Shown here: positions 34,898 through 63,999 of the stretch, piece by piece
How the letters are laid out: each line of letters begins with the position of its first letter
Position numbering within the stretch: the first letter of the stretch is position 1
From: an uncultured delta proteobacterium
Lineage (GTDB): Bacteria; Desulfobacterota; Desulfobacteria; Desulfobacterales; UBA11574
Assembly (NCBI GenBank): GCA_963752565.1
Contig: CAVVZC010000003.1
Location: 723,080 to 787,079, forward strand
Direction: 5' to 3'
DNA length: 64,000 bases
Program-made: the position numbers and the translations under genes
Notes under the pieces: model-generated
What the model was told of the DNA's origin: nothing
Seen by the model: the letters and a program-made list of their open reading frames with translations, nothing else
The model's database searches: none

Positions 34898-35851
34898 ATG
34901 TTTAAAAAAATACTGCTCGCCACAACAGCTTCACCTAACTGTAACCATGCGGCCAAAGTGGCGTTTGATCTGCAGCTCAAATGGAAGGCGAAACTAATCG
35001 TTCTTCATGTCTTTGGCGTGCATAGGAGTAATTATACTCCTTTTGCCAAGAAAAGCAAAACCATCAAAAAGAAAGTGATGGATGAGGAATATGCGGCCCT
35101 GATAATTGAAGAGATGAAAAACTCCTATGCTAAGGAGTTGGAACATAACGAAAACGTTGTTCTTGAAGCCAATGTCGGGCGGGCTGATAAGGAAATCTTA
35201 AGGAAGGCGCGCGAAGAGGATGTTGACCTAATTATCATGGGTGCCCACACGCGCGAGGAAGGCGCTGGTCCTATGCGGTTCAGGAGTGTGGTTGGAAACA
35301 CAATGCAAAGGGTTGCGAAATCCGCTCGCTGCCCAGTTATTATTATTGGCAGGCCAGGTACTACCGAATGGAAATTATTTTCAAATATTGAATCCGGATT
35401 GAAAATATTTCCAAATATTGTATTTGGAACCGATTTTTCCAAAGCATCTGATTCGGCCTTTCTCTTTGCGTACAAATTGGCAAAAGAAGTTGGAGCCAAG
35501 CTTTACCTTTTCCATGCTTTGAATATCCATTACGGCGATGCCGGCCAGGTTCGTCAGCAGACAGAGATTGAAGAAATGATAAAGGATGCTAAAGAGAAGA
35601 TTGAAAAAAGATATATATCTCAATTGGATGGTTTTGATAATTATGGAATCGAAGTTTGGGAAGGCATCCCGTACGTTGAAATTTTAAAGTTCGCTCGACA
35701 AAAGAATTGTGAACTCATTGTCTTGGCGCATCACACTAAAATAATCGAATCTTCCTTAGCGTCATTCGGTAGCACGATTGAACAAGTAGTTCTCCGCGCA
35801 ACACAGCCGGTTGCAAGTGTAAATCGTCCAGACAGAATTGCTGAAATGTAA
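34898..35851 (+). CDS. Tandem-domain universal stress protein
   Basis: KKILLAT, DLIIMGAH, GTDFS, GST.EQVV; RBS AAGGAGG. Confidence 0.92.
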   Translation: MFKKILLATTASPNCNHAAKVAFDLQLKWKAKLIVLHVFGVHRSNYTPFAKKSKTIKKKVMDEEYAALIIEEMKNSYAKELEHNENVVLEANVGRADKEILRKAREEDVDLIIMGAHTREEGAGPMRFRSVVGNTMQRVAKSARCPVIIIGRPGTTEWKLFSNIESGLKIFPNIVFGTDFSKASDSAFLFAYKLAKEVGAKLYLFHALNIHYGDAGQVRQQTEIEEMIKDAKEKIEKRYISQLDGFDNYGIEVWEGIPYVEILKFARQKNCELIVLAHHTKIIESSLASFGSTIEQVVLRATQPVASVNRPDRIAEM

Positions 35852-36033
35852 TCATTGCAGAAGAACCTCGTGTCCTGAAATGAGAAAAAATTTCCGCAAT
35901 AGCAAGATAATGACTAATGTTAATAGCCGGCAATAGACTCTGTAAAATCTTTGCAAAGGCGGAAAGGGGGATGTTGAAGCTGTTTCTTTTCAGTTGAAAT
36001 TTGAGGTTATATTTGAAACCGAGCATTTGAAAA

Positions 36034-36129
36034 ATGTTGAAAAAGATAAGTCTGAGATCAAGGATATTAATAAATATAACTGCTCTGGTCGTCATCACGA
36101 TCATGGGCGCGTTGGCGATGGTTGGGTAA
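36034..36129 (+). pseudogene. Truncated N-terminus of a membrane sensor (likely histidine kinase)
   Basis: MLKKISLRSRILINITALVVITIMGALAMVG*, typical sensor TM1 start with nothing following. Confidence 0.4.
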
Positions 36130-36539
36130 CCTCACCGGCGGGAATCGATCACAAGCAGCAAAGCTCCTTGGCCTTTCCAGGCCCACCTTACATTCCAAGA
36201 TCGAAAAGTATAGTCTCAAGTTCAAAACTTCCGTTAAAGAAGACCCATCATAGTTATTGAAAAATCCTTCTAAAATGTGGGCACCTTTTCTTTAGATTAT
36301 TATTTTTTTATTGCGATTCATAGATGAATTGCACTAATATTTATTATTATGATCACAGTGCATATCATTTTGCATTGGCCATACATAAAGGTCCATTTTA
36401 AAAAAATACGGTGTGATAATATAATATAATTTTTATTGCCTTTGAGCTGATTGAGCATGTAATTTTCCCGTTATTCTGGTTCATTATAAAAGTCAGAAAA
36501 AATCGAGTATTTTCATTAATAATGCTCAGGAGATAGATT

Positions 36540-38720
36540 ATGAGAGAGCGTAAAATAATGTATGTTTTGATTCTGATAATGATAACAGTTTGTGTTGTTG
36601 TCGCCGGAATTAACATCTTCATTTTGTACGGAACAGCATTTGAGCAGCAACGAGAGCGACTGATGGAGAGTGTTAAGGGTCAAGCGCGTCTGATAGAAGC
36701 AGTTGCCAGATTTAACGTTCTTCATAAAGCAAAATGGCACCCTCAATACGGAGATCCGGCAGACGCAACGCTGGTTGAAATCATAGACGCGCATGAGCAT
36801 TATGTGGGATTTGGAAAGACAGGAGAGTTTATGCTCGCCCGTCGCGATGGAGATAATATTTCTTTTTTATTGAATAACAGGCATGCCAGTTTCGAAAAAC
36901 CACAGCAGATGCGGTTCGACTCGAATCTTGCCGAACCGACGCGTTTGGCGCTATCAGGAAAATCCGGAACAGTGGTTGGTCTTGATTATCGTGGGATGAC
37001 TGTGGTTGCAGCATATGAACCCGTGGCACACTTGAACTTGGGTATAGTGGCAAAAATTGACTTGTCTGAGATTCGGGCGCCGTTTGCGAGAGCTGGGATA
37101 ATAACTGGAGTATTATCAGTTTTGACTGTTGTAGTGTCGGTGTTATTGTTCCTCCGCATTAGCAACCCGATTATTAGAATTTTGGAGGACCGAACTTTCG
37201 AATTTGAGAAAATGAATGAGAAATTGATACAGGAGATAGGAGATCACAAACGATCGCAGATGGACTTACATGAAGCAAAAGACCTGCTTTCCAATACGTT
37301 TGACGCCCTCCAAGACTCGGTGATGGTCATCGATAAAGATTTTCGGGTTAGAATGTCGAATTGGAAAAGCCATGATTACATTTCAGAAAAAGATCGTCAG
37401 GGCCGTCCTTATTGTTATGAGGTGTTTTTGAACCGCAATAAACCCTGTAACCCCTGCCACAACATGGAGGTGTTTGCTACCGGTGAAATAAAGCAGTTTG
37501 AGAATATAAATCCCATTGATGGAAAGATCAGGGATATACGCGTGCTTCCGATGTTTGATGATGAAGGCAAGGTTATCTCGGTGATCGAACACCTCCGTGA
37601 TATCACCGATCTCAAGCGATCAGAGAGGGCGTTGGTGGAAAGCGAACAGCGCTTCCGTGATCTGGTTGAAAATTCACTTATTGGAATATCCATTATTCAA
37701 AATAATCAAATTATCTATCAAAATCCCGAACAGGAGAAACTTATTGGTCCTCTACCACGGGAGCCTAAATTTGCAGATCTTGAAAACATTCATCCAGATG
37801 ACGCTGAAAAGTTAAGACAATTTCACCAGGCCGTCAATTCAGGCCAAGTTCAGACACAGGATACAGATTTTAGGTTCTATCTCCCGGATAATACCAACAA
37901 CACACTTGTCAAAAAATGGGTCCAATGTCGTGCAAGTATCATAGAATATCAAGGAGAAGAAGCGATGTTGGTCAATATGATGGATATTTCCCGGTCTAAG
38001 GAGATGGAGAGGCTTTTAAGAATTCAAGACAAGATGTCTTCTCTGGGGCGTGTGGCTGCCGGTATTGCCCATGAAATAAGAAACCCGCTTTCCGGCATTA
38101 ATATCTACTTAAACACCCTTGAGAAGATCTATGATAAAAGGGAAAACTTGGAAAAAGTAAAGGGGATTTTAGAAAAGATCCAATCAGCCTCAATTAAGAT
38201 TGAGTCTGTGATCAGGAGGGTCATGGATTTTTCAAAACCCGGTGAGCCAAAGTTTGTTTTAACAGACATAAATAAATCCATTAAGGAAGCCGTTAATCTT
38301 TCCGAGGTTACTTTGCGTAAGAAAGGGATTAAGATAGAAAAAGCTCTGGCTTCGGATTTGCCACTGTGTCAAGCCGATCCAAACATGATCGAACAGGTAA
38401 TTTTAAATCTGATCAACAATGCCACTGAAGCCATGCAGGATATGAGGAAAGGAAAAAAAATAGAGATAACCTCATCTATAGGAAATGATTGTATTCTCAT
38501 GATGGTTTCCGATTCTGGTCCCGGGGTGCCTTTAGCCATGAAAGATCAACTATTTGATCCCTTTTATTCCACCAAGAGCAGCGGTACAGGAATCGGCCTA
38601 AGTATCACCCACAGAATTGTCACAGATCATGGTGGTTCTATGGATATCTCAGAAAGTAGATGGGGCGGAGCTGAATTCAGGATTGAATTGCCCATAAAGA
38701 AAGGAATAGGCGACTCATGA
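36540..38720 (+). CDS. Membrane PAS-PAS sensor histidine kinase
   Basis: TM-Cache-TM, PAS with CYEVFLNRNKPCNPC, second PAS, AAGIAHEIRNPL, DSGPG, GTGIGL. Confidence 0.92.
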   Translation: MRERKIMYVLILIMITVCVVVAGINIFILYGTAFEQQRERLMESVKGQARLIEAVARFNVLHKAKWHPQYGDPADATLVEIIDAHEHYVGFGKTGEFMLARRDGDNISFLLNNRHASFEKPQQMRFDSNLAEPTRLALSGKSGTVVGLDYRGMTVVAAYEPVAHLNLGIVAKIDLSEIRAPFARAGIITGVLSVLTVVVSVLLFLRISNPIIRILEDRTFEFEKMNEKLIQEIGDHKRSQMDLHEAKDLLSNTFDALQDSVMVIDKDFRVRMSNWKSHDYISEKDRQGRPYCYEVFLNRNKPCNPCHNMEVFATGEIKQFENINPIDGKIRDIRVLPMFDDEGKVISVIEHLRDITDLKRSERALVESEQRFRDLVENSLIGISIIQNNQIIYQNPEQEKLIGPLPREPKFADLENIHPDDAEKLRQFHQAVNSGQVQTQDTDFRFYLPDNTNNTLVKKWVQCRASIIEYQGEEAMLVNMMDISRSKEMERLLRIQDKMSSLGRVAAGIAHEIRNPLSGINIYLNTLEKIYDKRENLEKVKGILEKIQSASIKIESVIRRVMDFSKPGEPKFVLTDINKSIKEAVNLSEVTLRKKGIKIEKALASDLPLCQADPNMIEQVILNLINNATEAMQDMRKGKKIEITSSIGNDCILMMVSDSGPGVPLAMKDQLFDPFYSTKSSGTGIGLSITHRIVTDHGGSMDISESRWGGAEFRIELPIKKGIGDS

Positions 38721-40105
38721 TTCAATATTCTATTTATATCGTCGATGATGAAGAGAGCATAAGGGAAGGGGTAACGATGGCCCTTGAGGAACACTATAAA
38801 ATAGAAGCATTCTCTACAGCCGAGACCGCAATTGACGCCATAGAGGCAAATCTCCCTGACCTGGTTCTGCTTGACATCGGATTACCGGGTATGGATGGGA
38901 TGAATGCGCTTCGCGAAATTAAGGGTCTGCATCCTGATGTACTAGTTATTATGATAACTGCCTATGAAGATATCGCCAGCGTAATCTCTGCCATGAAGCT
39001 GGGTGCCTATGATTATGTGGTAAAACCGATTCACATGGATAGTTTGGAGATGACAATTCGAAATGCGCTTGAAACGATCCGACTAAGAAAAGAAGTTCAG
39101 TTGCTCCAAGAGAGATATCTTAGGGAGAACCTTCCTTGTTTTATAAGTGAAAGCAATGCTATCCAGAATGTTATGGCTTTTATAGAGATGGTGGCAAAAA
39201 GCCCAGATACTCCGATTCTTATTCTCGGAGAAACCGGTACAGGTAAAGAATTGATTGCCAGTGCGATTCATTACAGAAGCCCCAATTTCAAGGGGCCTTT
39301 CATGACTGTGAATTGTGCTGCCATCCCAAAAGACCTTATTGAAAGCGAACTTTTTGGGTATGAAAAAGGCGCCTTCAGCGGAGCGGGGGCATCAGGCAAA
39401 AAAGGCTTAATAGAAGAGGCGGCAAATGGGACCCTGTTTCTTGATGAGGTGGGGGATTTGAGTCTTGAAGCCCAGGCCAAGCTTCTTAGATTTCTCGAAA
39501 TGGGTGAATTTTACAGGGTTGGCGGGACAAAGAAATTGCAAATTGAAACAAGAATCGTTTCCGCCACCAACAAAGATTTAGACAGTATGATAGAAAAAGG
39601 CCTGTTTCGAAAGGACCTTTATTTCCGAGTCGGAGTAATAAAAGTACAGGCACCCTCGTTGAATGAACGTCGCGGTGATATCATGCCACTTGCCAAGCAC
39701 TTCATTATGGAGTTCAGCAATAAATTCGGCAAGGCATTCACCGACATCTCTGCAAATGCAGAGAATGCTCTTATGACACACAACTGGACAGGCCATGTTC
39801 GTGAACTAAAAAACCTTATAGAGAAAGGAGTGCTTGTAGGAGAGGGACCAATGTTGGAGGTCGAGGATCTCGGCTTAGGAAAAATATCCGGAAGTGACAC
39901 ACCCAAGAAAGCAACAGATGGAATTATTTTTCCACCGCTTCCAGCTCAAGGCATCGACCTTGCTTTCACTCAAGAATCTTTAGAAAAATATTATATTGAA
40001 GAAGCCTTTAGAATGGCCGAAGGCAACGAAAGTAGGGCTGCCAGACTCCTTAACATGAACCACCACACCTTCCGTTACCGGAGAAAGAAGCTACAAAACA
40101 AATAG
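38717..40105 (+). CDS. NtrC-family sigma54-dependent response regulator
   Basis: REC, GETGTGKE, ESELFGY, GAFSGA, Fis HTH; ATGA overlap with the kinase. Confidence 0.93.
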   Translation: MIQYSIYIVDDEESIREGVTMALEEHYKIEAFSTAETAIDAIEANLPDLVLLDIGLPGMDGMNALREIKGLHPDVLVIMITAYEDIASVISAMKLGAYDYVVKPIHMDSLEMTIRNALETIRLRKEVQLLQERYLRENLPCFISESNAIQNVMAFIEMVAKSPDTPILILGETGTGKELIASAIHYRSPNFKGPFMTVNCAAIPKDLIESELFGYEKGAFSGAGASGKKGLIEEAANGTLFLDEVGDLSLEAQAKLLRFLEMGEFYRVGGTKKLQIETRIVSATNKDLDSMIEKGLFRKDLYFRVGVIKVQAPSLNERRGDIMPLAKHFIMEFSNKFGKAFTDISANAENALMTHNWTGHVRELKNLIEKGVLVGEGPMLEVEDLGLGKISGSDTPKKATDGIIFPPLPAQGIDLAFTQESLEKYYIEEAFRMAEGNESRAARLLNMNHHTFRYRRKKLQNK

Positions 40106-40234: not shown

Positions 40235-40374
40235 TTTCGAAATTTTTCTAAAACAAGTTTCGAAATTCTTCTAAATTAGGGCTCTGTGATAAGATGCTGG
40301 GCGAACGGTAAAACTATAACTACTATGACTTTATAAGGTTTATCTTAATTATGATTCGATGGCATACTTCATGC
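40235..40374 (+). promoter_or_regulatory. Regulon site B: tandem UAS + sigma54 promoter
   Basis: Boxes at 40235 and 40258; TGGCATACTTCATGC at 40360. Confidence 0.88.
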
Positions 40375-40445: not shown

Positions 40446-40856
40446 ATGGACCTGTATAGCAAACTCAAAGACAAGAAAATATTACTCGTAGACGACGATG
40501 AGTGGATCAGGGACTCCTTAACCGTGTACTTCGGTGCTGAAGGCTGCCACATTCTGGCGGTAGAGACGGCTGAAGAGGGTCTGGAATTACTCAAACAGGA
40601 AGATTGGGATATCATTCTTACAGACTATAAATTACCGGGCATAGATGGGTTGACATTTTCTAAAAAGATTCAGGGGATTCGTCCGGATGCCATAAAAATA
40701 CTCATCACGGCCTACAAAAATAAAGAGGTAGTTTCTGAAGCAGTGAGTGCCGGAATTCAAGATCTTATTGATAAGCCATTCACAATCAAGACTATTGAAG
40801 ATTCTATTTCTCGATTGATCCTCAAGAATGAAAAAGAAATTAAGAAAAGTTCATAA
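40446..40856 (+). CDS. Single-domain response regulator
   Basis: LLVDDD, TDYKLPG, ITAY, KPF. Confidence 0.9.
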   Translation: MDLYSKLKDKKILLVDDDEWIRDSLTVYFGAEGCHILAVETAEEGLELLKQEDWDIILTDYKLPGIDGLTFSKKIQGIRPDAIKILITAYKNKEVVSEAVSAGIQDLIDKPFTIKTIEDSISRLILKNEKEIKKSS

Positions 40857-40987
40857 TGTTTTTAAAGGTTCACTTATTTCAAAAAGCAAGGGGTTTGGCC
40901 ACAATATACCTCTGACATTTGTAAGTCGTTTAACCAAAGTATAATGAGCGAATGGATGGATTGGTAGAATTCACGGAAGGAAAAATC

Positions 40988-41104
40988 ATGAAAACCTTGG
41001 ACATTTTCTTGGTAACTTCTTTAGGTCTTACAGCAGCATGGTGCATTTACACATTAATTGTATTCTTAGGTTTTATTTTTATTACCCAGCCTTGGTATAT
41101 GTAG
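40988..41104 (+). CDS. Small 38-aa membrane protein
   Basis: RBS GGAAGGA; MKTLDIFLVTSLGLTAAWCIYTLIVFLGFIFITQPWYM. Confidence 0.5.
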   Translation: MKTLDIFLVTSLGLTAAWCIYTLIVFLGFIFITQPWYM

Positions 41105-41194
41105 CTGTTTTACGTAACGCCGGAGATTTAGATTAAAGTTCCCAAAAACTTAAAAAAGAACACTTAAAAAAGATTTAATTTAAGGAGGCGTAAC

Positions 41195-41491
41195 ATGTCA
41201 CATGTTAAATCAAAACAAAAGATTAAACGGCGAAGAGTGAAATTTTCATTAAAATCAGACGGAGCCAAAGAGGTTATCTTGATGGGAGATTTTAACAATT
41301 GGAATCCCAAAAAACACTCGATGCAAAGTAATGGTGAGGGAGTATGGAACAAAACAGTGGTGCTTTCTCCTGGAAAATACGAGTACAAGTTTTTGATTGA
41401 CGGTGAATGGAGGGAAGACCCCCAGAATGATCAAACCTGTCCGAATTCTTTCGGGACTCACAACAGTGTTCTTCACATAACCGTACCGTAA
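41195..41491 (+). CDS. Stand-alone glycogen-binding (CBM48 / AMPK-beta-like) protein
   Basis: GDFNNW, LSPGKYEYKFLIDGEW..DP, NSFGTHN. Confidence 0.9.
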   Translation: MSHVKSKQKIKRRRVKFSLKSDGAKEVILMGDFNNWNPKKHSMQSNGEGVWNKTVVLSPGKYEYKFLIDGEWREDPQNDQTCPNSFGTHNSVLHITVP

Positions 41492-41519
41492 AAAGTTCCA
41501 GCCATTATGGAGGATAACA

Positions 41520-41795
41520 ATGGCATCAAACTTCCATATGTTTTCTTTTAAAACCAGAGACAGTCTTCATCTAAAATTGGAGGGCGATTTTGATGGAAAT
41601 TCTGCCTATGAATTGCTCGAAACTCTAAAAAAATATGATAGCGGTTCTTATCAGATCTTTATTGACACTAATGACCTTAAAACCATCTATCCATTCGGTA
41701 AGGAAGTGTTTCAAAAGAAACTCGGTGCTTTCAAACAGCAATTAAGCAACCTTATCTTTATTGGGGAAAATGGACATATATTTTTGCCAAATTAG
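41520..41795 (+). CDS. STAS-like (anti-sigma antagonist-like) small protein
   Basis: LHLKLEGDFDGNSA.EL, IFIDT..L; RBS GGAGG. Confidence 0.65.
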   Translation: MASNFHMFSFKTRDSLHLKLEGDFDGNSAYELLETLKKYDSGSYQIFIDTNDLKTIYPFGKEVFQKKLGAFKQQLSNLIFIGENGHIFLPN

Positions 41796-42058
41796 AAGCC
41801 GTTGCATCGGTGCACCACCATACCGGTTGATGGCGCAGCTCCGACCCGACACAATAGAAACTATATCTATTAGAATGACGGGCGGGATATCTTGAATGTG
41901 TCCTTGGAGATATCAGGGGAGGATTGAGGAGCTATAATCAAATAAAAGCAAGGCAATAAACAGCCTACAGATCTGAAAATCGAGCAATGCCGAAGGATAA
42001 GCCTCTTTAACAAACAGGGACTTATCTAAGGCGTTGCGGAAGATTAAAGTGTATTAAA

Positions 42059-42421
42059 ATGGAAAAAATTCTGATCATCGATAATCAAAAATGGATACTA
42101 GATCTTTTTCATAACGAATTGCTCCGTGAGAGGTATACAGTTTCAGTTGCACCGGATGCTGAAATAATTCAGGAACACATTATGTCAGGCAAGTTCGATA
42201 TGGTGCTTTTAAGTCTTTATCTGCAGCATGGTTACTTCGTATGGGAAGTTTTACAGCACATCAAAAAGTTAGACCCAGACCTCCCGGTGATTATTCTTGC
42301 CGAATATGACAAATATCTATATGAACCGCAACTCGAATTAGCCGAGGACTATGTGGTCAAGAGCTGTTTGGCGGTAAAAGAACTCAAACAAAAGATGGAC
42401 GCAATTTTATGTGATGAATAG
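42059..42421 (+). CDS. Atypical response regulator (phospho-Asp replaced)
   Basis: KILIID, DMVLLSL, PDLPVII, YVVKS. Confidence 0.75.
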   Translation: MEKILIIDNQKWILDLFHNELLRERYTVSVAPDAEIIQEHIMSGKFDMVLLSLYLQHGYFVWEVLQHIKKLDPDLPVIILAEYDKYLYEPQLELAEDYVVKSCLAVKELKQKMDAILCDE

Positions 42422-56600: not shown

Positions 56601-57083
56601 ATGGTGAACGTGAACGATTTGATAACATTTTATCTGTTCAGTAAATTTTCCGAGGAGCAATTAGAGGAACTCGCTGAAATCACCGAAAAAAAAACCTACA
56701 AAAAACACGCTCATGTTTATGAGCGTGGCGACAGCGCCAAGCATTTATTTGTGGTGAGTAAGGGTCTCGTAAGCCTAAGGAGATTTGACCTCGGAGATCA
56801 GGTGGGCATTGCCTTTGAGACGCGCGAGAGCGGGGAGTTATTCGGTGCCGCTTCCTTCATGCATCCTCAGCATTATACGCTGACAGCTGTTTGCATTGAA
56901 GATTCAGAGGTAATAGCAATAGACGCCGACAAGCTGTCTGATTTGTGCAAAAAGGACCCGGCTGTGGGATACAAGCTGATGCTCGAAATCGCTCGGGTCT
57001 ATTTTGAGCGCTACAAAAGTGCCAAAAGAAACCTTCATGAGATGGTTCGAACACCTACGATTATAACTGCTCTTCCAGGTTAG
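56601..57083 (+). CDS. Stand-alone cyclic-nucleotide-binding (Crp-type) domain protein
   Basis: LFS.FSEEQL, YERGD.A..LFVV.KG.V, GELFG, TA.C; no HTH. Confidence 0.88.
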   Translation: MVNVNDLITFYLFSKFSEEQLEELAEITEKKTYKKHAHVYERGDSAKHLFVVSKGLVSLRRFDLGDQVGIAFETRESGELFGAASFMHPQHYTLTAVCIEDSEVIAIDADKLSDLCKKDPAVGYKLMLEIARVYFERYKSAKRNLHEMVRTPTIITALPG

Positions 57084-57214
57084 CCGATCTCTCTCATCAC
57101 GGCCATCTCCCCTTTGGAGAGAGAAAAAGACTGACCCGTATTTTATTCGGAGGTGGGGGGATTACACGTACAGTTATTGAGAAGTTACTTTAATAAATAA
57201 CAAGGAGGAAAATC

Positions 57215-57430
57215 ATGAATGAGTCCACTTACAAAATTATTGAGTTAGTAGGAACAAGCAGTGTTTCTTGGGAGGATGCTGCCAAGAATGCTGTAGAAAC
57301 GGCATCCAAGCCCCTTGAGGATCTGAGAATCGCGGAAGTTACTAAACTCGATATGAAGGTCGAGAATGGAAAGGTCTCCACTTATCGCTCCAGAGTAAGC
57401 CTTTCCTTTAAATATAAAAGCGGTGCTTGA
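57215..57430 (+). CDS. Dodecin (flavin-binding) family protein
   Basis: YKIIELVGTS..SWEDAA.NAV..A..L, YR..V.LSFKY. Confidence 0.92.
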   Translation: MNESTYKIIELVGTSSVSWEDAAKNAVETASKPLEDLRIAEVTKLDMKVENGKVSTYRSRVSLSFKYKSGA

Positions 57431-57811
57431 TGACGCCATAAGGGGTGGGAGTGACCACAATGATGCAGCTTCTGCCCCTTTTAGGTCAATAGTGCCCATT
57501 TTATTTATCTACAACGCGTTATTCTTCGGCCTTAATAAATCATCTTGCGAATTACACAGAATGAAAGAATTTTAGTGGGGCGAGGAAACTGGATATATAC
57601 ATGAAATTCGCAATACCTTTAACTGATAGGGAAATTAGAAAACAAAATTTCTGAAATATTCTTGCTCATAAAGATGCTCTTGTCACATGAAAAAACAGTC
57701 ATTATATCAGGGAGTTAAGAGCGTTCCGATGGGTTGATTTCATTCCCAAATTTACCTGGGGTTATAAATGAGTAATTTAACAATTTTAATTCTTGAAAGG
57801 AGGGAATTAAA

Positions 57812-58270
57812 ATGGAACAGGCACAGCCGGTATGCCCTTTAACTAAAGGTAAGAGAATACTTGTCGCGATGGATAGATCAAAATATAGCGAGAAGGCTTT
57901 TGATCAGGCGATAAGCATCGCAAAGATATGCAAAAGTATCCTTTTTGTAGTTAGCGTCGTTGACCTGTATCCTGAAGTGAAGGCAATTGTACTTGCCCTT
58001 GAGGAAAAGGGAAAGGTGTTAAAGGGGACAAAGGAATTCCTTGAAGGAGTCAAGGCTAAAGCCACAAAAGAAAATATACCATGTGAAACGATTGTGCATA
58101 TAGGCGGACAGCCCCATGAGTTTATCATTCAAGAAGCAAAGGAAAAAAATGTTGACCTCATCGTGATGGGAACCCATGGAAGGACCGGGCTAGATAAACT
58201 TTTAATAGGCAGTGTTGCTGAGAGAGTCGTTGGCCACGCGCCATGTGCTGTGATGGTAACCCCCGCTTAG
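57812..58270 (+). CDS. Universal stress protein
   Basis: ILVAMD.S, DLIVMGTHGRTG, GSVAERVV. Confidence 0.93.
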   Translation: MEQAQPVCPLTKGKRILVAMDRSKYSEKAFDQAISIAKICKSILFVVSVVDLYPEVKAIVLALEEKGKVLKGTKEFLEGVKAKATKENIPCETIVHIGGQPHEFIIQEAKEKNVDLIVMGTHGRTGLDKLLIGSVAERVVGHAPCAVMVTPA

Positions 58271-58327
58271 ATATAGCATATAGCGGAACACCTCGGTTAC
58301 GTCACATAGCATTCATATGAGGATACT

Positions 58328-59059
58328 ATGGAAAACACATTCTGGACGGCCTTGGGAGCCAGTTCTTTGGCCGCATTAGTGACCTCGGTGGGCATTTATG
58401 TCATACGCCGCTTCGAGCAATGGGGCCGTAAGAATACCATCTACTTCATCTGTTTCGCTGCCGGCGTCCTGATATCAGTGTCATTCTTGCACATCATCCC
58501 GAAGGCATTTTCCATGAATTCAAATGCCCCATTCTATCTGTTGGCCGGGTACCTTAGCCTGCACTTATTTAATCGGTTCATCAACGCTTTTGTGTGCGAT
58601 AAAGAATCGGATGCGCAATACGGGATTGGCCTTGTACCCATGCTTGGAATCGGGTTCCACTCATTTATCGACGGGTTCATCTATTCCATTACCTTCACCG
58701 TCAGTATCTTTACCGGGCTACTGGCAGCCACCGGTATGGTTCTTCACGAATTTCCCGAGGGGATCATAACGTACCTGCTGCTGAAACGGGGCGGGTTCAA
58801 GGAGAGGACGTCGCTGCTCTTTGCCTTATTGGCTGCGGCCCTGACCACGCCCCTGGGCATGCTCGTGTCGTACCCCTTGATCAGCAAAATTGACAAACCT
58901 CTCCTGGGTGCCCTACTGGCATTTTCTGCAGGAGCCCTTGTTTACGTGGGGGCCACTCACCTTCTGCCTCAGGCTGAAACGGAGCAAAAGAGATACAGCC
59001 TTTTCGCCCTGGGTGCCGGCATTTTGGTGGCCGCGGTTATTATCTTTTCCAAGGCATAG
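58328..59059 (+). CDS. ZIP family metal transporter
   Basis: FAAGVL, HSFIDG, HEFPEG, HLLP. Confidence 0.9.
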   Translation: MENTFWTALGASSLAALVTSVGIYVIRRFEQWGRKNTIYFICFAAGVLISVSFLHIIPKAFSMNSNAPFYLLAGYLSLHLFNRFINAFVCDKESDAQYGIGLVPMLGIGFHSFIDGFIYSITFTVSIFTGLLAATGMVLHEFPEGIITYLLLKRGGFKERTSLLFALLAAALTTPLGMLVSYPLISKIDKPLLGALLAFSAGALVYVGATHLLPQAETEQKRYSLFALGAGILVAAVIIFSKA

Positions 59060-59181: not shown

Positions 59182-60304
59182 TATATGATCGCATTAATTA
59201 ATGCAGCATAATGACTTTAATCGTTCGTTTGGTTTAGCGTGGTCTTTTAAGTATTCAATTACTGCATTTTCAAGCGCTATAAGATTTTCAAAAAAGGTAT
59301 TATGAGTCACACGATATCTCAGATTCTTCCAAACCCTTTCAACCGGATTTAGCTCAGGCGAGTAAGGTGGAAGAAAAAGCAGTTCTAATCGTTTTTTATG
59401 TATTTCCACAAATTCAGCAACCTTATTGCTTTTATGCGAAGCTTGCATTGTCAAGGACTAATACTATCTTTTTCCGTGTTTTAAAATTTCGAATCAGCCA
59501 TTTGAGATAATAGATGAAGGTATCGGAATCAAAACCATCAAAGATCAGTGAAAATAAGCGACCATTACGGTGGTTAACTGCACCGCAGACGCCCACTTTT
59601 TCTTTAGTAATCGGGCATTTTACTTGACTCTTGTGGCCACGCGGAAACCACCCTCTTGTGATCGTGCTTTCTCTTCGTAAAAAGGCTTCATCATAGAATA
59701 GAAGCTCTATTTTGTTATTGGGAATGATTTCATCGTGAATTTTTTTTAAAGGTATCTTGCTTTTCGGGATCAGCGCCAACGGGCATTTTACGAGGCCGCT
59801 GCAGAGAAAAACCAAGCTGTTTAAATAGGTTCTGGCATTGCCGCACCTTTAGCTGAACACCGTATTTTACTTTTAAGTGATGGGATAAGAGTTTGCCGTC
59901 CCATCTGGCCTGATCGTATCCAAGGTCTTTTGGAGATTTTTCTAAGTTGCTTTTTAATCGTAAACGATCATCATCGTTAAGTTGGGATCGGCGGCCTCGA
60001 CCTGGCGTATCTCTTAAGCCCTGAAAGCCCGATTCATTTAGCCTGTGGATCCAGCGCTGAACTGTAGTAGAATTTATTCCAAACAATCGGGCAACGTAGC
60101 TTAATGCATGACCATCACAGATCAGCGCGATAACATCTAAACGACGCACAAAACGTGCATCTTCATTAACAGCAAAGTAGTTTTGAATTTCGGTTTTAAC
60201 CTTTTCTACCTCTTTGATTTGTAGCATTTTTGGCATAATTCACCTCCTTGAGGTGAATGTACCATAAAATATTTTATACTGCAATATATATTACGTTTAT
60301 TATA
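59182..60304 (-). mobile_element. IS630-family insertion sequence
   Basis: Imperfect terminal IRs starting TATA (TATATGATCGCATTAATTAATGCAGCATAA vs TATAATAAACGTAATATATATTGCAGTATAA); transposase inside. Confidence 0.85.
59194..60236 (-). CDS. IS630 transposase (HTH + DDE), programmed frameshift at poly-A plus one extra indel
   Basis: HTH ORF ends FKK at A-run; FYDE, VLDNAS, LPPYSPELNPVERVW. Confidence 0.9.
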
Positions 60305-60338: not shown

Positions 60339-60478
60339 TTTCGAAATTTTGCGAAAAGAGATTTCGATATTTTTCTAATTTTTCATTTCACAGGAAAGTC
60401 ATTAAATCGCCCCATCAAAATTAACTATTTGAATTTATTGCATCTATAATGCCCATAGCAGGATGGCACACTTTATGC
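60339..60478 (+). promoter_or_regulatory. Regulon site E: tandem UAS + sigma54 promoter
   Basis: Boxes at 60339 and 60362; TGGCACACTTTATGC at 60464. Confidence 0.88.
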
Positions 60479-60673: not shown

Positions 60674-61119
60674 ATGAAGGTAGCAGTGAGTGCAAACGGA
60701 AGAGACCTGGATGCGCCGATTGACCCACGTTTCGGTCGGTGTGCCTATTTTATTATCGTGGATACGGACGACATAAGTTTTGAGGCCTTTGATAATGAGA
60801 GTATCGCCTTAGGTGGAGGAGCGGGGATTCAATCTGCCCAGTTTGTGGTTTCTAAAGGGGCCAAGGTTATTATTACGGGAAATGTAGGTCCAAATGCTGT
60901 GAGTACACTCTCGGCAGCAGGCGATGAAGCTGTTCACGGGCCAAACGGGCACAGTAAGAAAGGCCATAGAGGATTACAAAAAAGGGAAGTTAACCGGTTC
61001 GAACGAGGCCAATGCCTCTAGTAAGTGCCGGCATGATGGCCCGTGGAGCCGGTATGGGTCGTGGTATGGGCAGAGGAATGGGCGGTGGAAGAGGTATGGG
61101 CCGTGGAAGAAGCAGATGA
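60674..61119 (+). CDS. NifB/NifX family (Orange-protein-like) protein with Gly/Arg/Met tail, frameshifted
   Basis: MKVAVSA, DPRFGRC.YF, GGAGIQ, ITGNVGPNA; tail GRGAGMGRGMGRGMGGGRGMGRGRSR*. Confidence 0.88.
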
Positions 61120-61207
61120 GTTACGCAAACAGATCAAACCCATTGAATCCGGAGTCAGGGATTTAAACAAGAATAAACAAGGAAATTGAAAATAGAAGGT
61201 AAATCTC

Positions 61208-62458
61208 ATGGTGATTAAAAAGCAAAACATCAGTGATGAAGCCCGTAAAAAAAAGAGGAAGTTACAAGAGCGTGAAATCAAGGAAAGACTTAATCACATA
61301 ACAAACAAAATCCTTGTCATGAGCGGTAAAGGGGGTGTTGGTAAAAGTAGTGTGGCGGCCTATCTATCCGTGGTTCTGGCAAAGAGAGGTTACCGGGTCG
61401 GTCTTATGGACGTGGATCTTCATGGACCCAGCATCCCTCGAATGCTGGGCCTGAAAGGAAGTATTCATCCGGGGGTTCACAAAGGGAAAGCAATTCCTGT
61501 CAATTATCTTCCGAATATGGAAGTGATTTCAATTGAAATCCTTACGGGAGAAAACAAAGATACAGCAACGATCTGGCGGGGACCCCTTAAGATTGGGGTG
61601 ATCAAGCAGTTTATAGCTGATATTGAGTGGGGGGATCTCGATTATTTGATTATTGATTCACCTCCCGGTACCGGGGATGAGCCCCTGACCGTGGCCCAGA
61701 CTATTCCGGATGCCAAGGCCCTGATTGTAACCACGCCCCAGGAGATCTCATTAGCCGATGTCAGGAAATCCATTAACTTCTGCCGTCAGGTGCACATGGA
61801 GATTCTGGGCCTAGTGGAGAATATGAGTGGCCTAAAGTGCCCTTATTGCGGAAAAATCATAGACCTGTTTAAAACTCAAGGCGGGATGGTGACTGCAAAA
61901 AAAGAGAACTTGAGACTCCTGGCAACCCTGCCGTTTGAGCCCGAACTGGTAAAGGAAGGGGATGCGGGGGATATAAGCCTTCTTGATAATGATGAACTCT
62001 TAATCACCCGGGAATTCAACAAAATGGTGGATGAGATTGTGAAAATAAGTGAGGCGGATCATGACCTTCCTGCCAAATCAACGGAAATAGAGCTGCCAAG
62101 CCTGAATAAAGGCACAGCAGACGGCAGAGTTATCGTAATGCCCGTGTCGGAAGGAAAGCTTGCATCTCATTTTGGGCATTGTGACCAGTTCGCTTTCATT
62201 GAAACCGAAGATGGAAAAATCAAGGGCAATGAAATGCGCATCCCCCCGCCGCATGAACCCGGGGTGCTGCCTCGTTGGCTCAACGAGCAGGGGGCTGATG
62301 TGATCATAGCAAGAGGGATAGGAGAGAGAGCGCAGCAGCTTCTTCGTGAAAACGGAATTGAGGTTGTCATTGGCGGCCCCGTGGATTCCCCGGAGTCCCT
62401 GGCAAATCAGTACCTCGCGAACACCTTGATAAGCGGGGATAACGTTTGTGACCACTAA
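61208..62458 (+). CDS. mrp: Mrp/NBP35 Fe-S carrier ATPase fused to NifB/NifX domain (MrpORP-like)
   Basis: SGKGGVGKS, DVDLHGPS, DSPPGTGD, ENMS, CPYC; C-terminal HFGHC..F, PPPHEPGVLP, NVCDH. Confidence 0.92.
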   Translation: MVIKKQNISDEARKKKRKLQEREIKERLNHITNKILVMSGKGGVGKSSVAAYLSVVLAKRGYRVGLMDVDLHGPSIPRMLGLKGSIHPGVHKGKAIPVNYLPNMEVISIEILTGENKDTATIWRGPLKIGVIKQFIADIEWGDLDYLIIDSPPGTGDEPLTVAQTIPDAKALIVTTPQEISLADVRKSINFCRQVHMEILGLVENMSGLKCPYCGKIIDLFKTQGGMVTAKKENLRLLATLPFEPELVKEGDAGDISLLDNDELLITREFNKMVDEIVKISEADHDLPAKSTEIELPSLNKGTADGRVIVMPVSEGKLASHFGHCDQFAFIETEDGKIKGNEMRIPPPHEPGVLPRWLNEQGADVIIARGIGERAQQLLRENGIEVVIGGPVDSPESLANQYLANTLISGDNVCDH

Positions 62459-62503
62459 CAAAGTTTGATCCGGAAGATTGATTGCAATTTCAAGGAGCTA
62501 TAT

Positions 62504-62640
62504 ATGATTATCAGTATTGCAAGCGGAAAAGGGGGTACAGGAAAAACAACCATAGCCACGAACCTGGCAGTTTCTATTGAAACAGACGTTCAAATTATAG
62601 ACTGTGATGTGGAAGAACCGAATGCTCACCTCTTTTTGGA
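62504..62640 (+). pseudogene. Truncated MinD-like P-loop Fe-S ATPase (Orp3/Orp4-type N-terminus)
   Basis: RBS AAGGAG; MIISIASGKGGTGKTT...DCDVEEPNAHLFL then abrupt switch to Hsp20 sequence. Confidence 0.85.
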
Positions 62641-62643
62641 GAA

Positions 62644-63054
62644 TTGAGTCCATTTCGAAAAGAAATGGACAGACTTTGGGATCGATTTTTGGGCGAGACA
62701 TCATTTGCCAGGACATTTAACGAAATGTGGTCGCCGTCGGTCGATATTTCGGAAACCAAGGATGACTTTGTCGTAAAGGCCGAGTTGCCTGGTCTGGAAG
62801 CAAAAGACGTAAACGTTAGTATCTCAGGAGACGTACTGACCATCAAAGGTGAAAAGAAAGCGGAAGAGGAAGAGAAAGACGAGCATTATCATTGTGTTGA
62901 GAGGTACTCGGGGTCTTTCCAGCGGGTATTCCAGCTGCCGAGCGGGGTAAAAGCCGATAAGATTGAGGCAAACTTTGATAAGGGCGTTTTGAAAGTAACC
63001 CTGCCCAAGGTAGAGGAAGCCAAGAAGAAAGAAATTGAAGTCAAGGTTAAATGA
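62644..63054 (+). CDS. Hsp20 small heat-shock protein (native 5' end probably missing)
   Basis: RKEMDRLWDRF, PSVDISET, AELPG, ERYSGSF.R.F.LP, GVLKVTLPK. Confidence 0.9.
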   Translation: MSPFRKEMDRLWDRFLGETSFARTFNEMWSPSVDISETKDDFVVKAELPGLEAKDVNVSISGDVLTIKGEKKAEEEEKDEHYHCVERYSGSFQRVFQLPSGVKADKIEANFDKGVLKVTLPKVEEAKKKEIEVKVK

Positions 63055-63121
63055 ATTAATATTGGCCCTCCCCGGGTTACGTTATTGCTAATTTTTTAAG
63101 AGTTAGGGAAAGGAGAATAAT

Positions 63122-63472
63122 ATGAATTTTTTCGAAATCATCAAAGCAGAAAAAGATGAAGGAAACGAGAAACATGTCCCTCATATTGAAATTGACAGGG
63201 GGCATAAGATGGGAAGGGACATCATTCGAGTGGTTGTAGGGCATGAGGTTCCTCACCCCAACACAATGGAACACCATATTGCATGGATCGAACTTTACGG
63301 GGTGAAAAAGGATAATGATCAGGTAGTCAATTTGGGCCGTGCCGCCTGTGCACCTGTCTTTTCCAATCCGAATGTTCGTTTTCAGGTTAATCAGATGGAG
63401 GATTTTAAATCCTTCCATGCCCTGGCTTACTGCAATATCCATGGGCTCTGGACGAATTCACTGGAGCGGTAA
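63122..63472 (+). CDS. Superoxide reductase-like (neelaredoxin / class II SORL) protein
   Basis: EKHVP, HPNTMEHHIAWI, YCNIHGLW iron ligands. Confidence 0.9.
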   Translation: MNFFEIIKAEKDEGNEKHVPHIEIDRGHKMGRDIIRVVVGHEVPHPNTMEHHIAWIELYGVKKDNDQVVNLGRAACAPVFSNPNVRFQVNQMEDFKSFHALAYCNIHGLWTNSLER

Positions 63473-63540
63473 TGCATCGAGCAATTAAGATGTTTTACTA
63501 TAGGCTTTTTAGGAAATAACCTCCTTCCAAAGGGTATATT

Positions 63541-63999
63541 ATGAAAAAATTTAAGAAAATCCTGTTCCCGATAGATTTTTCGGAGGTGTCTCCAGAAATC
63601 GTTCCTTACGTAATCTCCATGGCAGATAAGCTCAATGCCGAAGTTCATGTTATCTTCGTTGTGCGCCAGCTTGAAAACTGTCGAAGCATTTTCGTATCAC
63701 ATGGTGCTGTAGAAAACTTTGAAATGGAAATCGTTTTAGGAGCTGAAACAAAGATGGATGAATTTGTAGAAGAATTTTTTAAAAGTATTGTTAGGCCTAA
63801 GACAAAGATATTGATTGGCGATATTGTCGAAGAAATCATTAAGTACATAAAAGCTAAAGGGATTGATCTGGTCATCATAGGGACGCATGGCAGAAAAGGT
63901 ATGGACCGGATTATCCTCGGGAGCATAGCAGATAGGGTGATCAAGTCAGCACCTGTTCCGGTTCTGAGCGTGAATCCCTACAAAGCTTTAGAACATTAA
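63541..63999 (+). CDS. Universal stress protein (may run off window)
   Basis: KKILFPIDFS, DLVIIGTHGRKG, GSIADRV. Confidence 0.92.
   Translation: MKKFKKILFPIDFSEVSPEIVPYVISMADKLNAEVHVIFVVRQLENCRSIFVSHGAVENFEMEIVLGAETKMDEFVEEFFKSIVRPKTKILIGDIVEEIIKYIKAKGIDLVIIGTHGRKGMDRIILGSIADRVIKSAPVPVLSVNPYKALEH

What the first reader, a model, noticed from the sequence alone, without database searches (positions are those of the whole stretch)
34898..63999. Regulon content resembles a DosR-like stress/dormancy programme built on sigma54 in an anaerobe
Downstream of the shared promoters are five USP genes (34898, 43021, 50657, 57812, 63541), Hsp20, a superoxide-reductase-like protein, dodecin, a stand-alone cNMP domain, a CBM48 glycogen-binding protein, a GT4 compatible-solute-type glycosyltransferase, two Mrp Fe-S carriers, NifB/NifX proteins, a radical SAM enzyme and a ZIP transporter. 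Multiple USPs plus a small HSP under one two-component system is the hallmark of the mycobacterial DosR regulon. Here it is combined with O2 detoxification and Fe-S handling. The function (oxygen/redox or dormancy response) is inferred.
Basis: inference. Interest (0 to 1): 0.75.

Follow-up and report, generated by a model that had tools for sequence, protein, structure and literature searches.

The report
Conserved sigma-54 stress regulon in Desulfobacterales
A two-component system in an uncultured sulfate-reducer relative appears to switch on about thirty clustered stress, metal-cluster and redox-defence genes through six look-alike sigma-54 promoters, an arrangement also found in related genomes and resembling the mycobacterial dormancy regulon in content only.

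Summary

All of them lie behind six sigma-54-type promoters (TGGYAY-N5-ATGC). These are served by five upstream enhancer modules, each made of two 18-bp sites (TTTCGAAATTTTTCTAAA) exactly 23 bp apart.

An exact-pattern scan of 185,579 species genomes returned 50 loci. Thirty-one were Desulfobacterales-type, from 19 assemblies, and 30 of these 31 have the promoter 86-93 nt downstream. None of the 19 loci from other phyla does.

Downstream genes recur: USPs, single-domain response regulators, MrpORP/ORP, hybrid-cluster protein, ZIP and Hsp20. In 6 loci from 6 assemblies the orthologous kinase and NtrC-type activator sit immediately upstream of a module, and the recognition helix is invariant.

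Corrections:
- The "NifB/NifX + Mrp" genes are orange-protein (ORP) complex genes, and two of them are frame-broken.
- The regulators are unrelated to DosR/DosS.
- Sigma-54 systems that include USP genes are already described (DVU3305, NmpR).

The signal and the direction of regulation remain untested. Verdict: a real, conserved regulon for which my searches found no description. It is a new member of a known kind. The DosR comparison is an analogy.

The parts
34614..34654 (+). Enhancer module 1: two 18-bp sites 23 bp apart
   Evidence: sequence
34739..34753 (+). P1 sigma-54 -24/-12 promoter, TGGCATACTTCATGC
   Evidence: lies 92 nt after the module pattern
34898..35851 (+). Tandem (two-domain) USP, first gene of the P1 unit
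   Evidence: Pfam Usp, 2 stretches, E 3.8e-42
36540..38720 (+). Sensor histidine kinase: TM, extracytoplasmic domain, TM, PAS1 (C292/C303/C306), PAS2, HisKA, HATPase
38717..40105 (+). NtrC-type enhancer-binding response regulator (REC, AAA+ with GAFSGA, HTH_8)
40235..40275 (+). Enhancer module 2; the P1 and P2 control regions are duplicates over about 330 nt
40360..40374 (+). P2 sigma-54 promoter
40446..43470 (+). P2 unit: REC-only regulator (40446), CBM48 protein (41195), 91-aa unknown (41520), REC-like protein lacking the acceptor Asp (42059), sll1863-family stress protein (42534), USP (43021)
   Evidence: The REC-only gene directly follows the module in 8 loci of 7 other assemblies
43536..51974 (-). 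P3 unit: GNAT, USP, two half-size ArsP-like permease genes, ABC ATPase, FtsX-type permease, secreted Nitro_FeMo-Co protein, LolA-like protein, 472-aa unknown, GT4-type glycosyltransferase
   Evidence: The ArsP halves (L025) and the glycosyltransferase (L039) lie behind the module elsewhere. Co-transcription over 8.4 kb is not shown
52133..52147 (-). P3 sigma-54 promoter
52231..52271 (.). Enhancer module 3, palindromic, shared by the divergent promoters P3 and P4
52412..52426 (+). P4 sigma-54 promoter, TGGTACATTTCATGC
   Evidence: A divergent second promoter 145-185 nt from the module recurs in L004, L030, L044, L025 and L039
52490..53662 (+). Second MrpORP gene, broken into four frame segments
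   Evidence: tblastn against the intact L025 and L039 orthologues
53751..54710 (+). Radical SAM protein in the P4 unit
   Evidence: closest NCBIfam match is far below its cutoff
55941..55981 (+). Enhancer module 4
56065..56079 (+). P5 sigma-54 promoter
56120..59059 (+). P5 unit: 107-aa unknown, cNMP-binding protein, dodecin, USP, ZIP transporter
   Evidence: The unknown-cNMP pair (L027) and the USP-ZIP pair (L042, L046) lie behind the module elsewhere
59432..60236 (-). IS630-type transposase in two ORFs; an insertion between units, not part of the regulon
60339..60379 (+). Enhancer module 5
60464..60478 (+). P6 sigma-54 promoter
60674..63999 (+). P6 unit: ORP (orange protein) homologue, frameshifted near 60925; MrpORP (61208); Hsp20 (62644); neelaredoxin-type SOR (63122); USP (63541)
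   Evidence: An Hsp20 orthologue is the first gene behind a module in L049

Best explanation
This is a clustered sigma-54 regulon run by the local two-component system.

Shown from sequence:
- Five enhancer modules, each two 18-bp dyad-like sites 23 bp apart. A -24/-12 promoter lies 86-93 nt after the search pattern (78-85 nt after the full 41-nt module); the second promoter of a divergent pair lies about 145-185 nt away.
- These precede six transcription units of about 32-34 genes.
- One unit begins with a USP gene and contains the kinase and activator genes, so the system is placed to regulate itself.
- The design and much of its cargo are conserved in Desulfobacterales-type genomes.

Inferred mechanism:
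- The membrane kinase (36540-38720) phosphorylates the NtrC-type activator (38717-40105).
- The activator oligomerises on the paired sites. Probably helped by an IHF-like bend, it opens the sigma-54 promoters.
- The REC-only regulator that always follows the activator gene acts as a phosphate sink or a second output.

Inferred function: a stress-survival programme that co-expresses
- nucleotide-sensing USP, CBS and cNMP proteins;
- a small heat-shock protein;
- oxidant defence (SOR here; hybrid-cluster protein and a rubrerythrin-type rubredoxin in relatives);
- the ORP/MrpORP Fe-S delivery complex;
- metal transporters;
- a possible compatible-solute glycosyltransferase.

The most likely trigger is a redox, oxidant or energy-limitation signal. 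It resembles the DosR regulon in content and in its USP-first autoregulated operon. It is not homologous to it.
For: Statistics in the window:
- Promoter motif: 9 matches against 0.91 expected.
- Enhancer 18-mer: 12 matches against 0.54 expected.
- Spacing between paired sites is exactly 23 bp in 5 of 5 pairs.

Conservation of the design:
- The genome scan returned 50 loci.
- 30 of 31 Desulfobacterales-type loci carry TGGYAY-N5-[A/G/T]TGC 86-93 nt after the module pattern, against 0 of 19 loci from other phyla. Fisher p = 6.6e-13.

Cargo recurring behind the module:
- USP in 8 loci of 6 assemblies.
- REC-only regulator in 8 loci of 7 assemblies.
- Hybrid-cluster protein in 3 assemblies.
- MrpORP in 2 and an ORP-like protein in 1.
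- Rubrerythrin-type rubredoxin in 3, CBS in 3, ZIP in 2, radical SAM in 2.
- cNMP, Hsp20, the ArsP halves and the glycosyltransferase in 1 each.

Assignment of the regulator:
- The kinase 3' end plus an activator orthologue (72-99% identity) lie immediately upstream of a module in L003, L017, L028, L034, L035 and L047.
- Their recognition helix (NHHTFRYR) is invariant.
- 301 database clusters carry this DNA-binding domain. Those that have names are Desulfobacterales or 'Deltaproteobacteria' MAGs.
- The activator has the acceptor-Asp context, Walker A and a GAFSGA loop. GAFSGA is among the variants listed as able to maintain activation in PMC4641369.
- Its best structural relatives are the NtrC1/NtrC4 structures.

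An IHF-like site sits at a fixed position in the spacer in 17 of 34 modules.
Against: - No expression data, no binding data and no rpoN gene in the window.
- Co-transcription of the long units is assumed. The simple terminator and sigma-70 scans were not above chance and resolve nothing.
- The scan pattern was derived from this window and required exact matches. The survey is therefore biased towards look-alike sites, and with 2-kb flanks it sees only the first genes.
- P1 and P2 are duplicated regions, so they are not independent.
- In Desulfovibrio vulgaris the orp operons are ON at low redox and OFF on oxidation (PMC8359166). This fits poorly with oxidant induction of a unit that joins orp genes to SOR.
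- The three-Cys PAS1 is missing from 19 of 25 full-length kinase orthologues, so it cannot be the family's common sensor.
- Two ORP-type genes are frame-broken.
- A second sigma-54 activator lies 10 kb upstream. It cannot be excluded as the binder, although a different repeat precedes the promoter next to it.
Confidence: 0.6

Rival explanations
1. This is a low-redox 'anaerobic lifestyle' or ORP-complex programme. Like OrpR in Desulfovibrio vulgaris, the system is ON under reduced conditions and shut off by oxidation. The USP, Hsp20 and SOR genes are carried along as standing protection rather than as an induced stress or dormancy response.
For: - MrpORP equivalog and an orange-protein homologue head the P4 and P6 units.
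- MrpORP or ORP genes lie behind the module in 3 other assemblies.
- The D. vulgaris orp operons are divergent, sigma-54 dependent and expressed only at low redox (PMC8359166: introduction, section 2.3 and discussion read).
Against: - ORP-type genes account for only 2 of the 6 units.
- The most conserved cargo is USPs and REC-only regulators.
- Hsp20, hybrid-cluster protein and the sll1863-family protein are typical stress-induced families, judged from family names and general knowledge.
- The regulator type and the DNA motif differ from OrpR. The OrpR palindrome gives 0 hits at up to 3 mismatches.
Confidence: 0.2
2. This is a metal or envelope homeostasis regulon in the manner of ZraSR. The kinase's extracytoplasmic domain senses a metal or envelope cue. 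The regulon adjusts metal import and export and metallocluster handling.
For: - ZIP transporter, ArsP-like permease halves, an ABC/FtsX/LolA-like exporter, a secreted Nitro_FeMo-Co protein and MrpORP/ORP.
- The extracytoplasmic domain is the part of the kinase most conserved among orthologues.
- ZraS ranks high among kinase-core matches.
Against: - The ZraS and AtoS matches cover only the generic kinase core and are far below the family cutoffs.
- USPs, REC-only regulators, Hsp20, SOR and hybrid-cluster protein are not metal-specific.
- No metal-binding motif was identified in the sensor domain. It has no Pfam or PDB match.
Confidence: 0.12
3. There is no common regulation. The shared sequences are remnants of duplicated intergenic DNA, and the gene content is a chance neighbourhood.
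For: - P1 and P2 control regions are duplicates over about 330 nt.
- P5 and P6 share about 140 nt.
Against: - Outside the duplicates only the enhancer sites, a spacer element and the -24/-12 element are conserved.
- The same module, distance and promoter occur in 30 of 31 Desulfobacterales-type loci from 19 assemblies, with recurring cargo.
Confidence: 0.03

Closest known systems
DosR/DevR-DosS/DosT dormancy regulon of mycobacteria, and OsdR/OsdK of Streptomyces coelicolor
   Same: - Several USP genes plus an alpha-crystallin-type small HSP sit under one two-component system.
- A USP gene heads the autoregulated kinase-regulator operon (Rv3134c-devRS).
- USP genes cluster around the regulator genes, as in S. 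coelicolor.
- Redox proteins are among the targets.

Sources: passages of PMC5069765; listing abstract of PMC2914252, which states that six of ten M. tuberculosis USPs are in the DosR regulon.
   Different: - The regulator here is an NtrC-type AAA+ activator working on sigma-54 promoters, not a NarL-type regulator (NarL assignment recalled).
- The kinase has an extracytoplasmic domain and PAS domains, not GAF-haem (recalled).
- The DNA motif is unrelated.
- The cargo adds the ORP/MrpORP complex, SOR, dodecin and transporters, and lacks nitroreductases and nitrate genes.
- The inducing signal is unknown.
DVU3305-DVU3304-DVU3303 'general stress' sigma-54 system of Desulfovibrio vulgaris Hildenborough
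   Same: - A sigma-54 response regulator with a GAFSGA loop.
- It regulates its own operon and a neighbouring operon that includes a USP (DVU3298).
- A second response regulator is part of the system.
- The host is a sulfate reducer.

Sources: PMC3333781 passages; PMC4641369 passages and supplementary files 3-5.
   Different: - Its motif is TGTTGCA-N3-TGCAACA, which gives 0 hits in the window at up to 2 mismatches.
- The HTH sequence differs.
- Its partner regulator carries a Lon protease domain, and none is present here.
- Its regulon is small, two local operons and a few others, against six units with five USP genes here.
[quoted passage not shown]
   Same: - MrpORP and ORP homologues are transcribed from sigma-54 promoters.
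- One pair of divergent promoters shares an enhancer.
- An IHF-type site is likely.

Sources: PMC8359166; PMC6345978, abstract only.
   Different: - OrpR is a one-component PAS-AAA+-HTH activator with a [4Fe-4S] PAS domain, and its regulon is only the two orp operons.
- Here the orp-type genes carry the enhancer of a REC-type activator and are joined to USP, Hsp20 and SOR genes.
- The OrpR palindrome is absent.
- An OrpR-like activator with the same C-x8-C-x3-C spacing does exist at 24661-26079. Its targets are unknown.
NmpRSTU of Myxococcus xanthus
   Same: An NtrC-like regulator drives a sigma-54 regulon that includes USP and CBS-domain genes. It is linked to oxygen limitation, and its authors compare it to mycobacterial dormancy USPs (PMC11841059: abstract and passages).
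   Different: - The host is aerobic.
- It uses a multi-kinase phosphorelay with a haem kinase.
- Its motif is GCGCA-N5-TGCGC, which gives 0 hits in the window at up to 1 mismatch.
- Its cargo centres on a high-affinity oxidase.

Membership tests
NtrC-family sigma-54 two-component regulon | Activator with REC, a sigma-54-interaction AAA+ domain carrying a GAFTGA-type loop, and a Fis-type HTH | tested here: met
   Pfam Response_reg, Sigma54_activat (E 2.5e-64) and HTH_8. GAFSGA, Walker A and the acceptor-Asp context are present. Best PDB relatives are NtrC1/NtrC4.
NtrC-family sigma-54 two-component regulon | -24 GG / -12 GC promoters in front of the target genes | tested here: met
   Six TGGYAY-N5-ATGC sites, each 41-196 nt before an ORF. 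Nine matches overall against 0.91 expected.
NtrC-family sigma-54 two-component regulon | Paired upstream activator sites about 80-150 bp from the promoter, with the cognate kinase gene adjacent | tested here: met
   The kinase gene overlaps the activator gene (38717-38720).
NtrC-family sigma-54 two-component regulon | rpoN present in the genome and transcription dependent on it | not testable with these tools
   No rpoN in the 64-kb window. The rest of the genome is not available.
DosR/DevR dormancy regulon | NarL/LuxR-type response regulator binding a DosR box at sigma-70-type promoters | tested here: not met
   The regulator is NtrC-type and the promoters are -24/-12. That DosR is NarL-type is recalled, not taken from a call.
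DosR/DevR dormancy regulon | Haem-GAF sensor kinases (DosS/DosT) | tested here: not met
   No GAF domain. The kinase has TM, an extracytoplasmic domain, TM and two PAS domains. That DosS and DosT use GAF-haem is recalled.
DosR/DevR dormancy regulon | Several USPs plus a small HSP among the targets, and a USP gene heading the autoregulated kinase-regulator operon | tested here: met
   Five USP genes and Hsp20 lie behind the promoters. The tandem USP is the first gene of the P1 unit. The comparison rests on PMC5069765.
DosR/DevR dormancy regulon | Induction by hypoxia, NO or CO, with entry into non-replicating persistence | not testable with these tools
   No expression or physiology data.
ORP (orange protein) complex / OrpR regulon | Two-domain MrpORP and an ORP-type Nitro_FeMo-Co protein | tested here: met
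   NF041136 MrpORP, 502.3 bits against a cutoff of 450. ORP structure 2WFB is the best PDB match for the 60674 protein, E 2.3e-17.
ORP (orange protein) complex / OrpR regulon | Control by OrpR (Cys3 Fe-S PAS activator) through the GGGCGYRTTTTGCGCCC palindrome | tested here: not met
   0 matches at up to 3 mismatches. The orp-type genes carry the REC-activator's module instead. The OrpR-like gene at 24661 is 27-35 kb from the orp-type genes (52490, 60674).
DVU3305-type general stress system | TGTTGCA-N3-TGCAACA sites and a Lon-domain partner regulator | tested here: not met
   0 matches at up to 2 mismatches. No Lon domain among the 43 ORFs scanned.

The most novel reading that the evidence does not exclude
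Desulfobacterales and their neighbours possess a lineage-wide survival regulon that arose independently of the actinobacterial DosR regulon but has similar content. A membrane kinase with an exchangeable cytoplasmic PAS module senses redox or oxidant stress. In this clade that module is a three-cysteine PAS that could hold a metal or Fe-S centre. Through sigma-54 the kinase co-induces USPs, a small HSP, SOR or hybrid-cluster protein, and the ORP/MrpORP complex. This would give the enigmatic orange-protein complex a stress-repair role, and would give marine sulfate reducers their first defined persistence programme.
Probability: 0.25. Interest if true: 0.75.

Novelty: new member of a known kind. 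Interest (0 to 1): 0.5.

Why it matters
- Sulfate reducers of the Desulfobacterales dominate marine sediments and repeatedly face oxygen, oxidants and starvation, yet no defined stress or persistence regulon is known for them.
- The work yields a compact 41-bp enhancer module with a fixed-distance promoter, so the full regulon can be read out of any MAG and followed in metatranscriptomes.
- It ties the poorly understood ORP/MrpORP complex and multiple USPs to one switch.
- It offers a natural comparison with DosR, OsdR, DVU3305 and NmpR: similar cargo recruited by unrelated regulators.

Tried and rejected
- The canonical sigma-54 consensus TGGCAC-N5-TTGC was not above chance. The signal appeared only once ATGC was allowed at -12.
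- Simple sigma-70 and terminator scans were at chance level and did not resolve operon ends.
- Rfam gave 0 families and ARAGORN 0 tRNAs across the window, so the long leaders hold no known RNA element.
- The first PWM build used too narrow a search window and caught only 8 modules. It was redone with 34.
- A CXXCH haem-c motif in PAS1 was rejected: the His is Pro in 5 of the 6 closest orthologues.
- The three-Cys PAS1 was rejected as the universal sensor: it is absent in 19 of 25 full-length orthologues. Kinase C-terminal fragments in the loci could not tell which PAS1 class accompanies the module elsewhere.
- The N-terminal sensor domain has no significant Pfam match (dCache_1 at E 0.22 only) and no PDB sequence match.
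- Orthology of the activator with DVU3305 was suspected from the shared GAFSGA loop. It was rejected because the HTH and the motif differ.
- Structure prediction of the kinase sensor could not be run, and the protein atlas was unavailable for the 472-aa unknown. Fold-level statements on both are therefore missing.
- Supplementary tables of PMC3333781 were not held in usable form.
- Literature searches found no paper describing this Desulfobacterales regulon. Subscription journals are not covered by the library.
Full report
OBSERVATION

I listed ORFs for 30-64 kb and scanned 43 of them against Pfam and 36 against NCBIfam.

- Five USP genes: 34898 (a two-domain tandem USP), 43021, 50657 on the minus strand, 57812 and 63541.
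- Hsp20 at 62644.
- A neelaredoxin-type superoxide reductase at 63122. It carries EKHVP and C-x2-H motifs that I recognise from memory as the active site.
- Dodecin, a stand-alone cNMP-binding protein, a CBM48/AMPK-type module, a GT4-type glycosyltransferase, a radical SAM protein and a ZIP transporter.

Three USPs (50657, 57812, 63541) carry the G-x2-G-x9-G-S/T ATP motif. The other two do not.

Two names need correcting.

- The protein at 61208 is an MrpORP equivalog (502 bits against a cutoff of 450).
- The protein at 60674 is most similar to the solved orange protein ORP (2WFB, E 2.3e-17).

So the 'Mrp + NifB/NifX' set is the orange-protein complex, not nitrogenase-cofactor machinery.

- two REC-only proteins, one lacking the acceptor Asp;
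- an sll1863-family stress protein;
- a GNAT;
- two half-size ArsP-like permease genes;
- an ABC/FtsX/LolA-like export set with a secreted Nitro_FeMo-Co protein and a 472-aa unknown;
- an IS630-type transposase.

REGULATORY ARCHITECTURE

The textbook -24/-12 pattern was not enriched. TGGYAY-N5-WTGC gave 9 matches against 0.91 expected. Six of them carry ATGC at -12 and lie between 34.7 and 60.5 kb, each in front of a gene string.

Reading the five intergenic regions showed a shared 18-mer, TTTCGAAATTTTTCTAAA.

- At up to 3 mismatches it occurs 12 times against 0.54 expected.
- The hits form ten sites in five pairs with exactly 23 bp start-to-start spacing.
- None lies in the first 34 kb.
- The promoter starts 91-92 nt after the search pattern, which is 83-84 nt after the full 41-nt module, for P1, P2, P5 and P6.
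- The palindromic pair at 52231-52271 serves two divergent promoters, P3 at about 85 nt and P4 at about 140 nt.

Outside the sites, a spacer element and the promoter, the regions are unrelated. The exceptions are P1/P2, which are duplicates over about 330 nt, and P5/P6, which share about 140 nt.

Counting same-strand genes gives 32-34 genes in six units. Co-transcription is assumed. The simple terminator and sigma-70 scans were uninformative.

CONSERVATION

It returned 50 loci.

- Thirty-one come from records titled Desulfobacterales, Desulfobacteraceae, Desulfosarcina, Desulfatiglandales, Syntrophaceae, 'delta proteobacterium' or an Olavius-associated Delta 1 bacterium. This count includes one 2-kb contig binned as an archaeon. 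Together they represent 19 assemblies.
- Nineteen come from other phyla and look like chance matches in AT-rich DNA.

A TGGYAY-N5-[A/T]TGC promoter follows at 89-93 nt in 28 of the 31. Two more have GTGC at -12. One (L011) has none. None of the 19 other loci has a promoter at that distance (Fisher p = 6.6e-13).

I scanned 129 downstream ORFs against Pfam and compared the window proteins with the loci by tblastn.

| Cargo behind the module | Where found |
|---|---|
| USP | 8 loci, 6 assemblies |
| REC-only regulator | 8 loci, 7 assemblies |
| Hybrid-cluster protein (first gene) | 3 assemblies |
| Rubrerythrin-type rubredoxin followed by a USP | 3 |
| CBS proteins | 3 |
| MrpORP | 2 |
| ORP-like | 1 |
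| USP-ZIP orthologues of 57812/58328 | 2 |
| Radical SAM | 2 |
| Unknown-cNMP pair | 1 |
| ArsP halves | 1 |
| Glycosyltransferase | 1 |
| Orthologue of the Hsp20 N-terminus (86% over 66 aa; fragment too short for Pfam at 1e-5) | 1 |

A matrix scan found one further non-exact module with a promoter (L002). It found no extra module in the window.

This survey has limits. The pattern came from this window and had to match exactly, and the flanks are only 2 kb.

WHICH REGULATOR

In six loci from six assemblies the 3' end of the kinase gene and a full orthologue of the activator (72-99% identity) lie immediately upstream of a module. A REC-only regulator follows it, as at P2. Across these orthologues the recognition helix NHHTFRYR is invariant. 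The window's other activator differs there.

A search with the C-terminal 63 residues found 301 clusters at 90% identity. Almost all are about 462 aa, and those that are named come from Desulfobacterales or 'Deltaproteobacteria' MAGs. No isolate appears among the 120 listed.

The module upstream of the USP-kinase-activator unit implies positive autoregulation. A sigma-70-like match (10 of 12) before the kinase gene could give basal expression, but that scan was at chance level.

THE SENSOR

The kinase has two transmembrane segments around a roughly 150-aa extracytoplasmic domain, then two PAS domains and the kinase core.

- The extracytoplasmic domain is the best conserved part among 30 relatives and is reused in many other kinases. 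It has no significant Pfam or PDB match.
- PAS1 carries C292-x10-C303-x2-C306. The motif is kept in 6 of 6 orthologues at 86% identity or more. It is also kept in 12 PAS modules of otherwise different kinases.
- PAS1 is replaced by a Cys-free PAS in 19 more distant full-length orthologues, some of which share about 94% identity in the kinase core. PAS1 is therefore an exchangeable input.
- A metal or Fe-S centre in PAS1 is only a hypothesis. It is suggested by OrpR, whose PAS binds a [4Fe-4S] cluster through three cysteines (PMC8359166).

COMPARISON WITH KNOWN SYSTEMS

(a) DosR. The content parallels are real: several USPs, a small HSP, and a USP gene heading the autoregulated operon (PMC5069765 passages; PMC2914252 listing abstract). 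The regulator class, kinase class, promoter class and motif all differ. This is an analogy, not membership.

(b) DVU3305 of D. vulgaris is a published sigma-54 'general stress' regulator with a USP target and the same GAFSGA loop. Its motif and HTH differ and its motif is absent here.

(c) NmpR of M. xanthus is a published sigma-54 regulator of a hypoxia regulon that includes USP and CBS genes. Its motif is absent here.

(d) OrpR. The orp genes are known sigma-54 targets that are ON at low redox. Here they have been recruited to a different activator's enhancer and joined to Hsp20, SOR and a USP in one unit. An OrpR-like activator with the identical C-x8-C-x3-C spacing sits at 24661-26079, but the OrpR palindrome is not found.

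Five literature searches found no description of this regulon. Subscription journals are not covered.

MECHANISM AND RIVALS

I commit to this mechanism: the kinase phosphorylates the NtrC-type activator, which assembles on the paired sites and opens six sigma-54 promoters. An IHF-like site sits at a fixed spacer position in 17 of 34 modules. This part I hold at about 0.85.

The functional reading is a stress-survival programme triggered by redox, oxidant or energy stress. It rests only on gene families and I hold it at about 0.45-0.5. The combined statement is given 0.6.

The main rival is that the regulon is a low-redox programme like OrpR's. The D. vulgaris data point that way for the orp genes. 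A metal or envelope reading is possible but weaker. Chance or duplication alone is excluded by the cross-genome result.

LIMITS

- No expression, binding or physiology data.
- rpoN was not seen.
- The rest of the source genome was not available.
- Two ORP-type genes are frame-broken. I cannot tell assembly error from decay.

Noticed in passing
window 24661-26079 (+): A second sigma-54 activator (PAS-AAA+-HTH_8). Its PAS has Cys62-x8-Cys71-x3-Cys75, the same spacing as the three Fe-S-binding cysteines of OrpR (C52, C61, C65). The D. vulgaris OrpR palindrome is not in the window.
   Followed up: partly
window 29320-29455 (+), with genes at 26506-33434: A separate canonical sigma-54 promoter (TGGCACATTCCTTGC at 29441) is preceded by different repeats, including the palindrome GGTTCAAATATGAACC. 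It leads to a REC protein, a CBS protein, a CitMHS-type transporter and another REC protein. A kinase (possibly split at 26506/27065), a REC protein and a HisKA-like ORF lie just upstream. This is a second signalling-rich sigma-54 system next to the regulon.
   Followed up: partly
window 52490-53662 (+): The MrpORP paralogue is split over four reading-frame segments relative to the intact single-ORF orthologues in L025 and L039. It is either a decaying gene or a set of assembly indels.
   Followed up: yes
window 60674-61166 (+): The ORP-homologue gene changes frame near 60925 and continues in ORF 60924-61166. Its L041 orthologue is one 211-aa protein with a Gly/Arg-rich DUF5320 tail.
   Followed up: partly
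window 59432-60236 (-): An IS630-type transposase in two overlapping ORFs sits between the P5 and P6 units. One weak enhancer-like 18-mer (59929) lies inside it.
   Followed up: no
window 44904-47423 (-): A Nitro_FeMo-Co protein with a signal peptide (47031) and a beta-rich 472-aa protein of no known family with an N-terminal signal-like segment (44904) flank a LolA-like protein, next to an ABC/FtsX pair. This may be an envelope export or insertion system for a metallocluster protein.
   Followed up: no
window 41195-41491 and 30790-31344; loci L002, L017, L025: A stand-alone AMPK-beta-type CBM48 module in the window and CBS-pair proteins in relatives lie behind the same enhancer. They are reminiscent of the carbohydrate-binding and nucleotide-sensing parts of AMPK. 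This is only an association.
   Followed up: no
kinase orthologues P0003-P0027: Kinases that are about 90% or more identical in the core and N-terminal sensor carry two unrelated PAS1 modules, one with three Cys and one Cys-free. This indicates recent swapping of the cytoplasmic input domain.
   Followed up: partly
loci L005, L024, L026, L032, L038: Five of the chance hits come from unrelated phyla (Zixibacteria, Ignavibacteriales, Pseudomonadota, Acidobacteria). They share a longer conserved string around the match (CCGGGAAATTTTTCAAAAGC..ATTTCGGGATTTTGGTGAC), suggesting some conserved element of their own.
   Followed up: no
window 4762-5049 (+): An HU/IHF-family DNA-binding protein gene (Bac_DNA_binding, E 3.5e-32). 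A canonical -24/-12 match lies on the opposite strand at 4993-5007.
   Followed up: no
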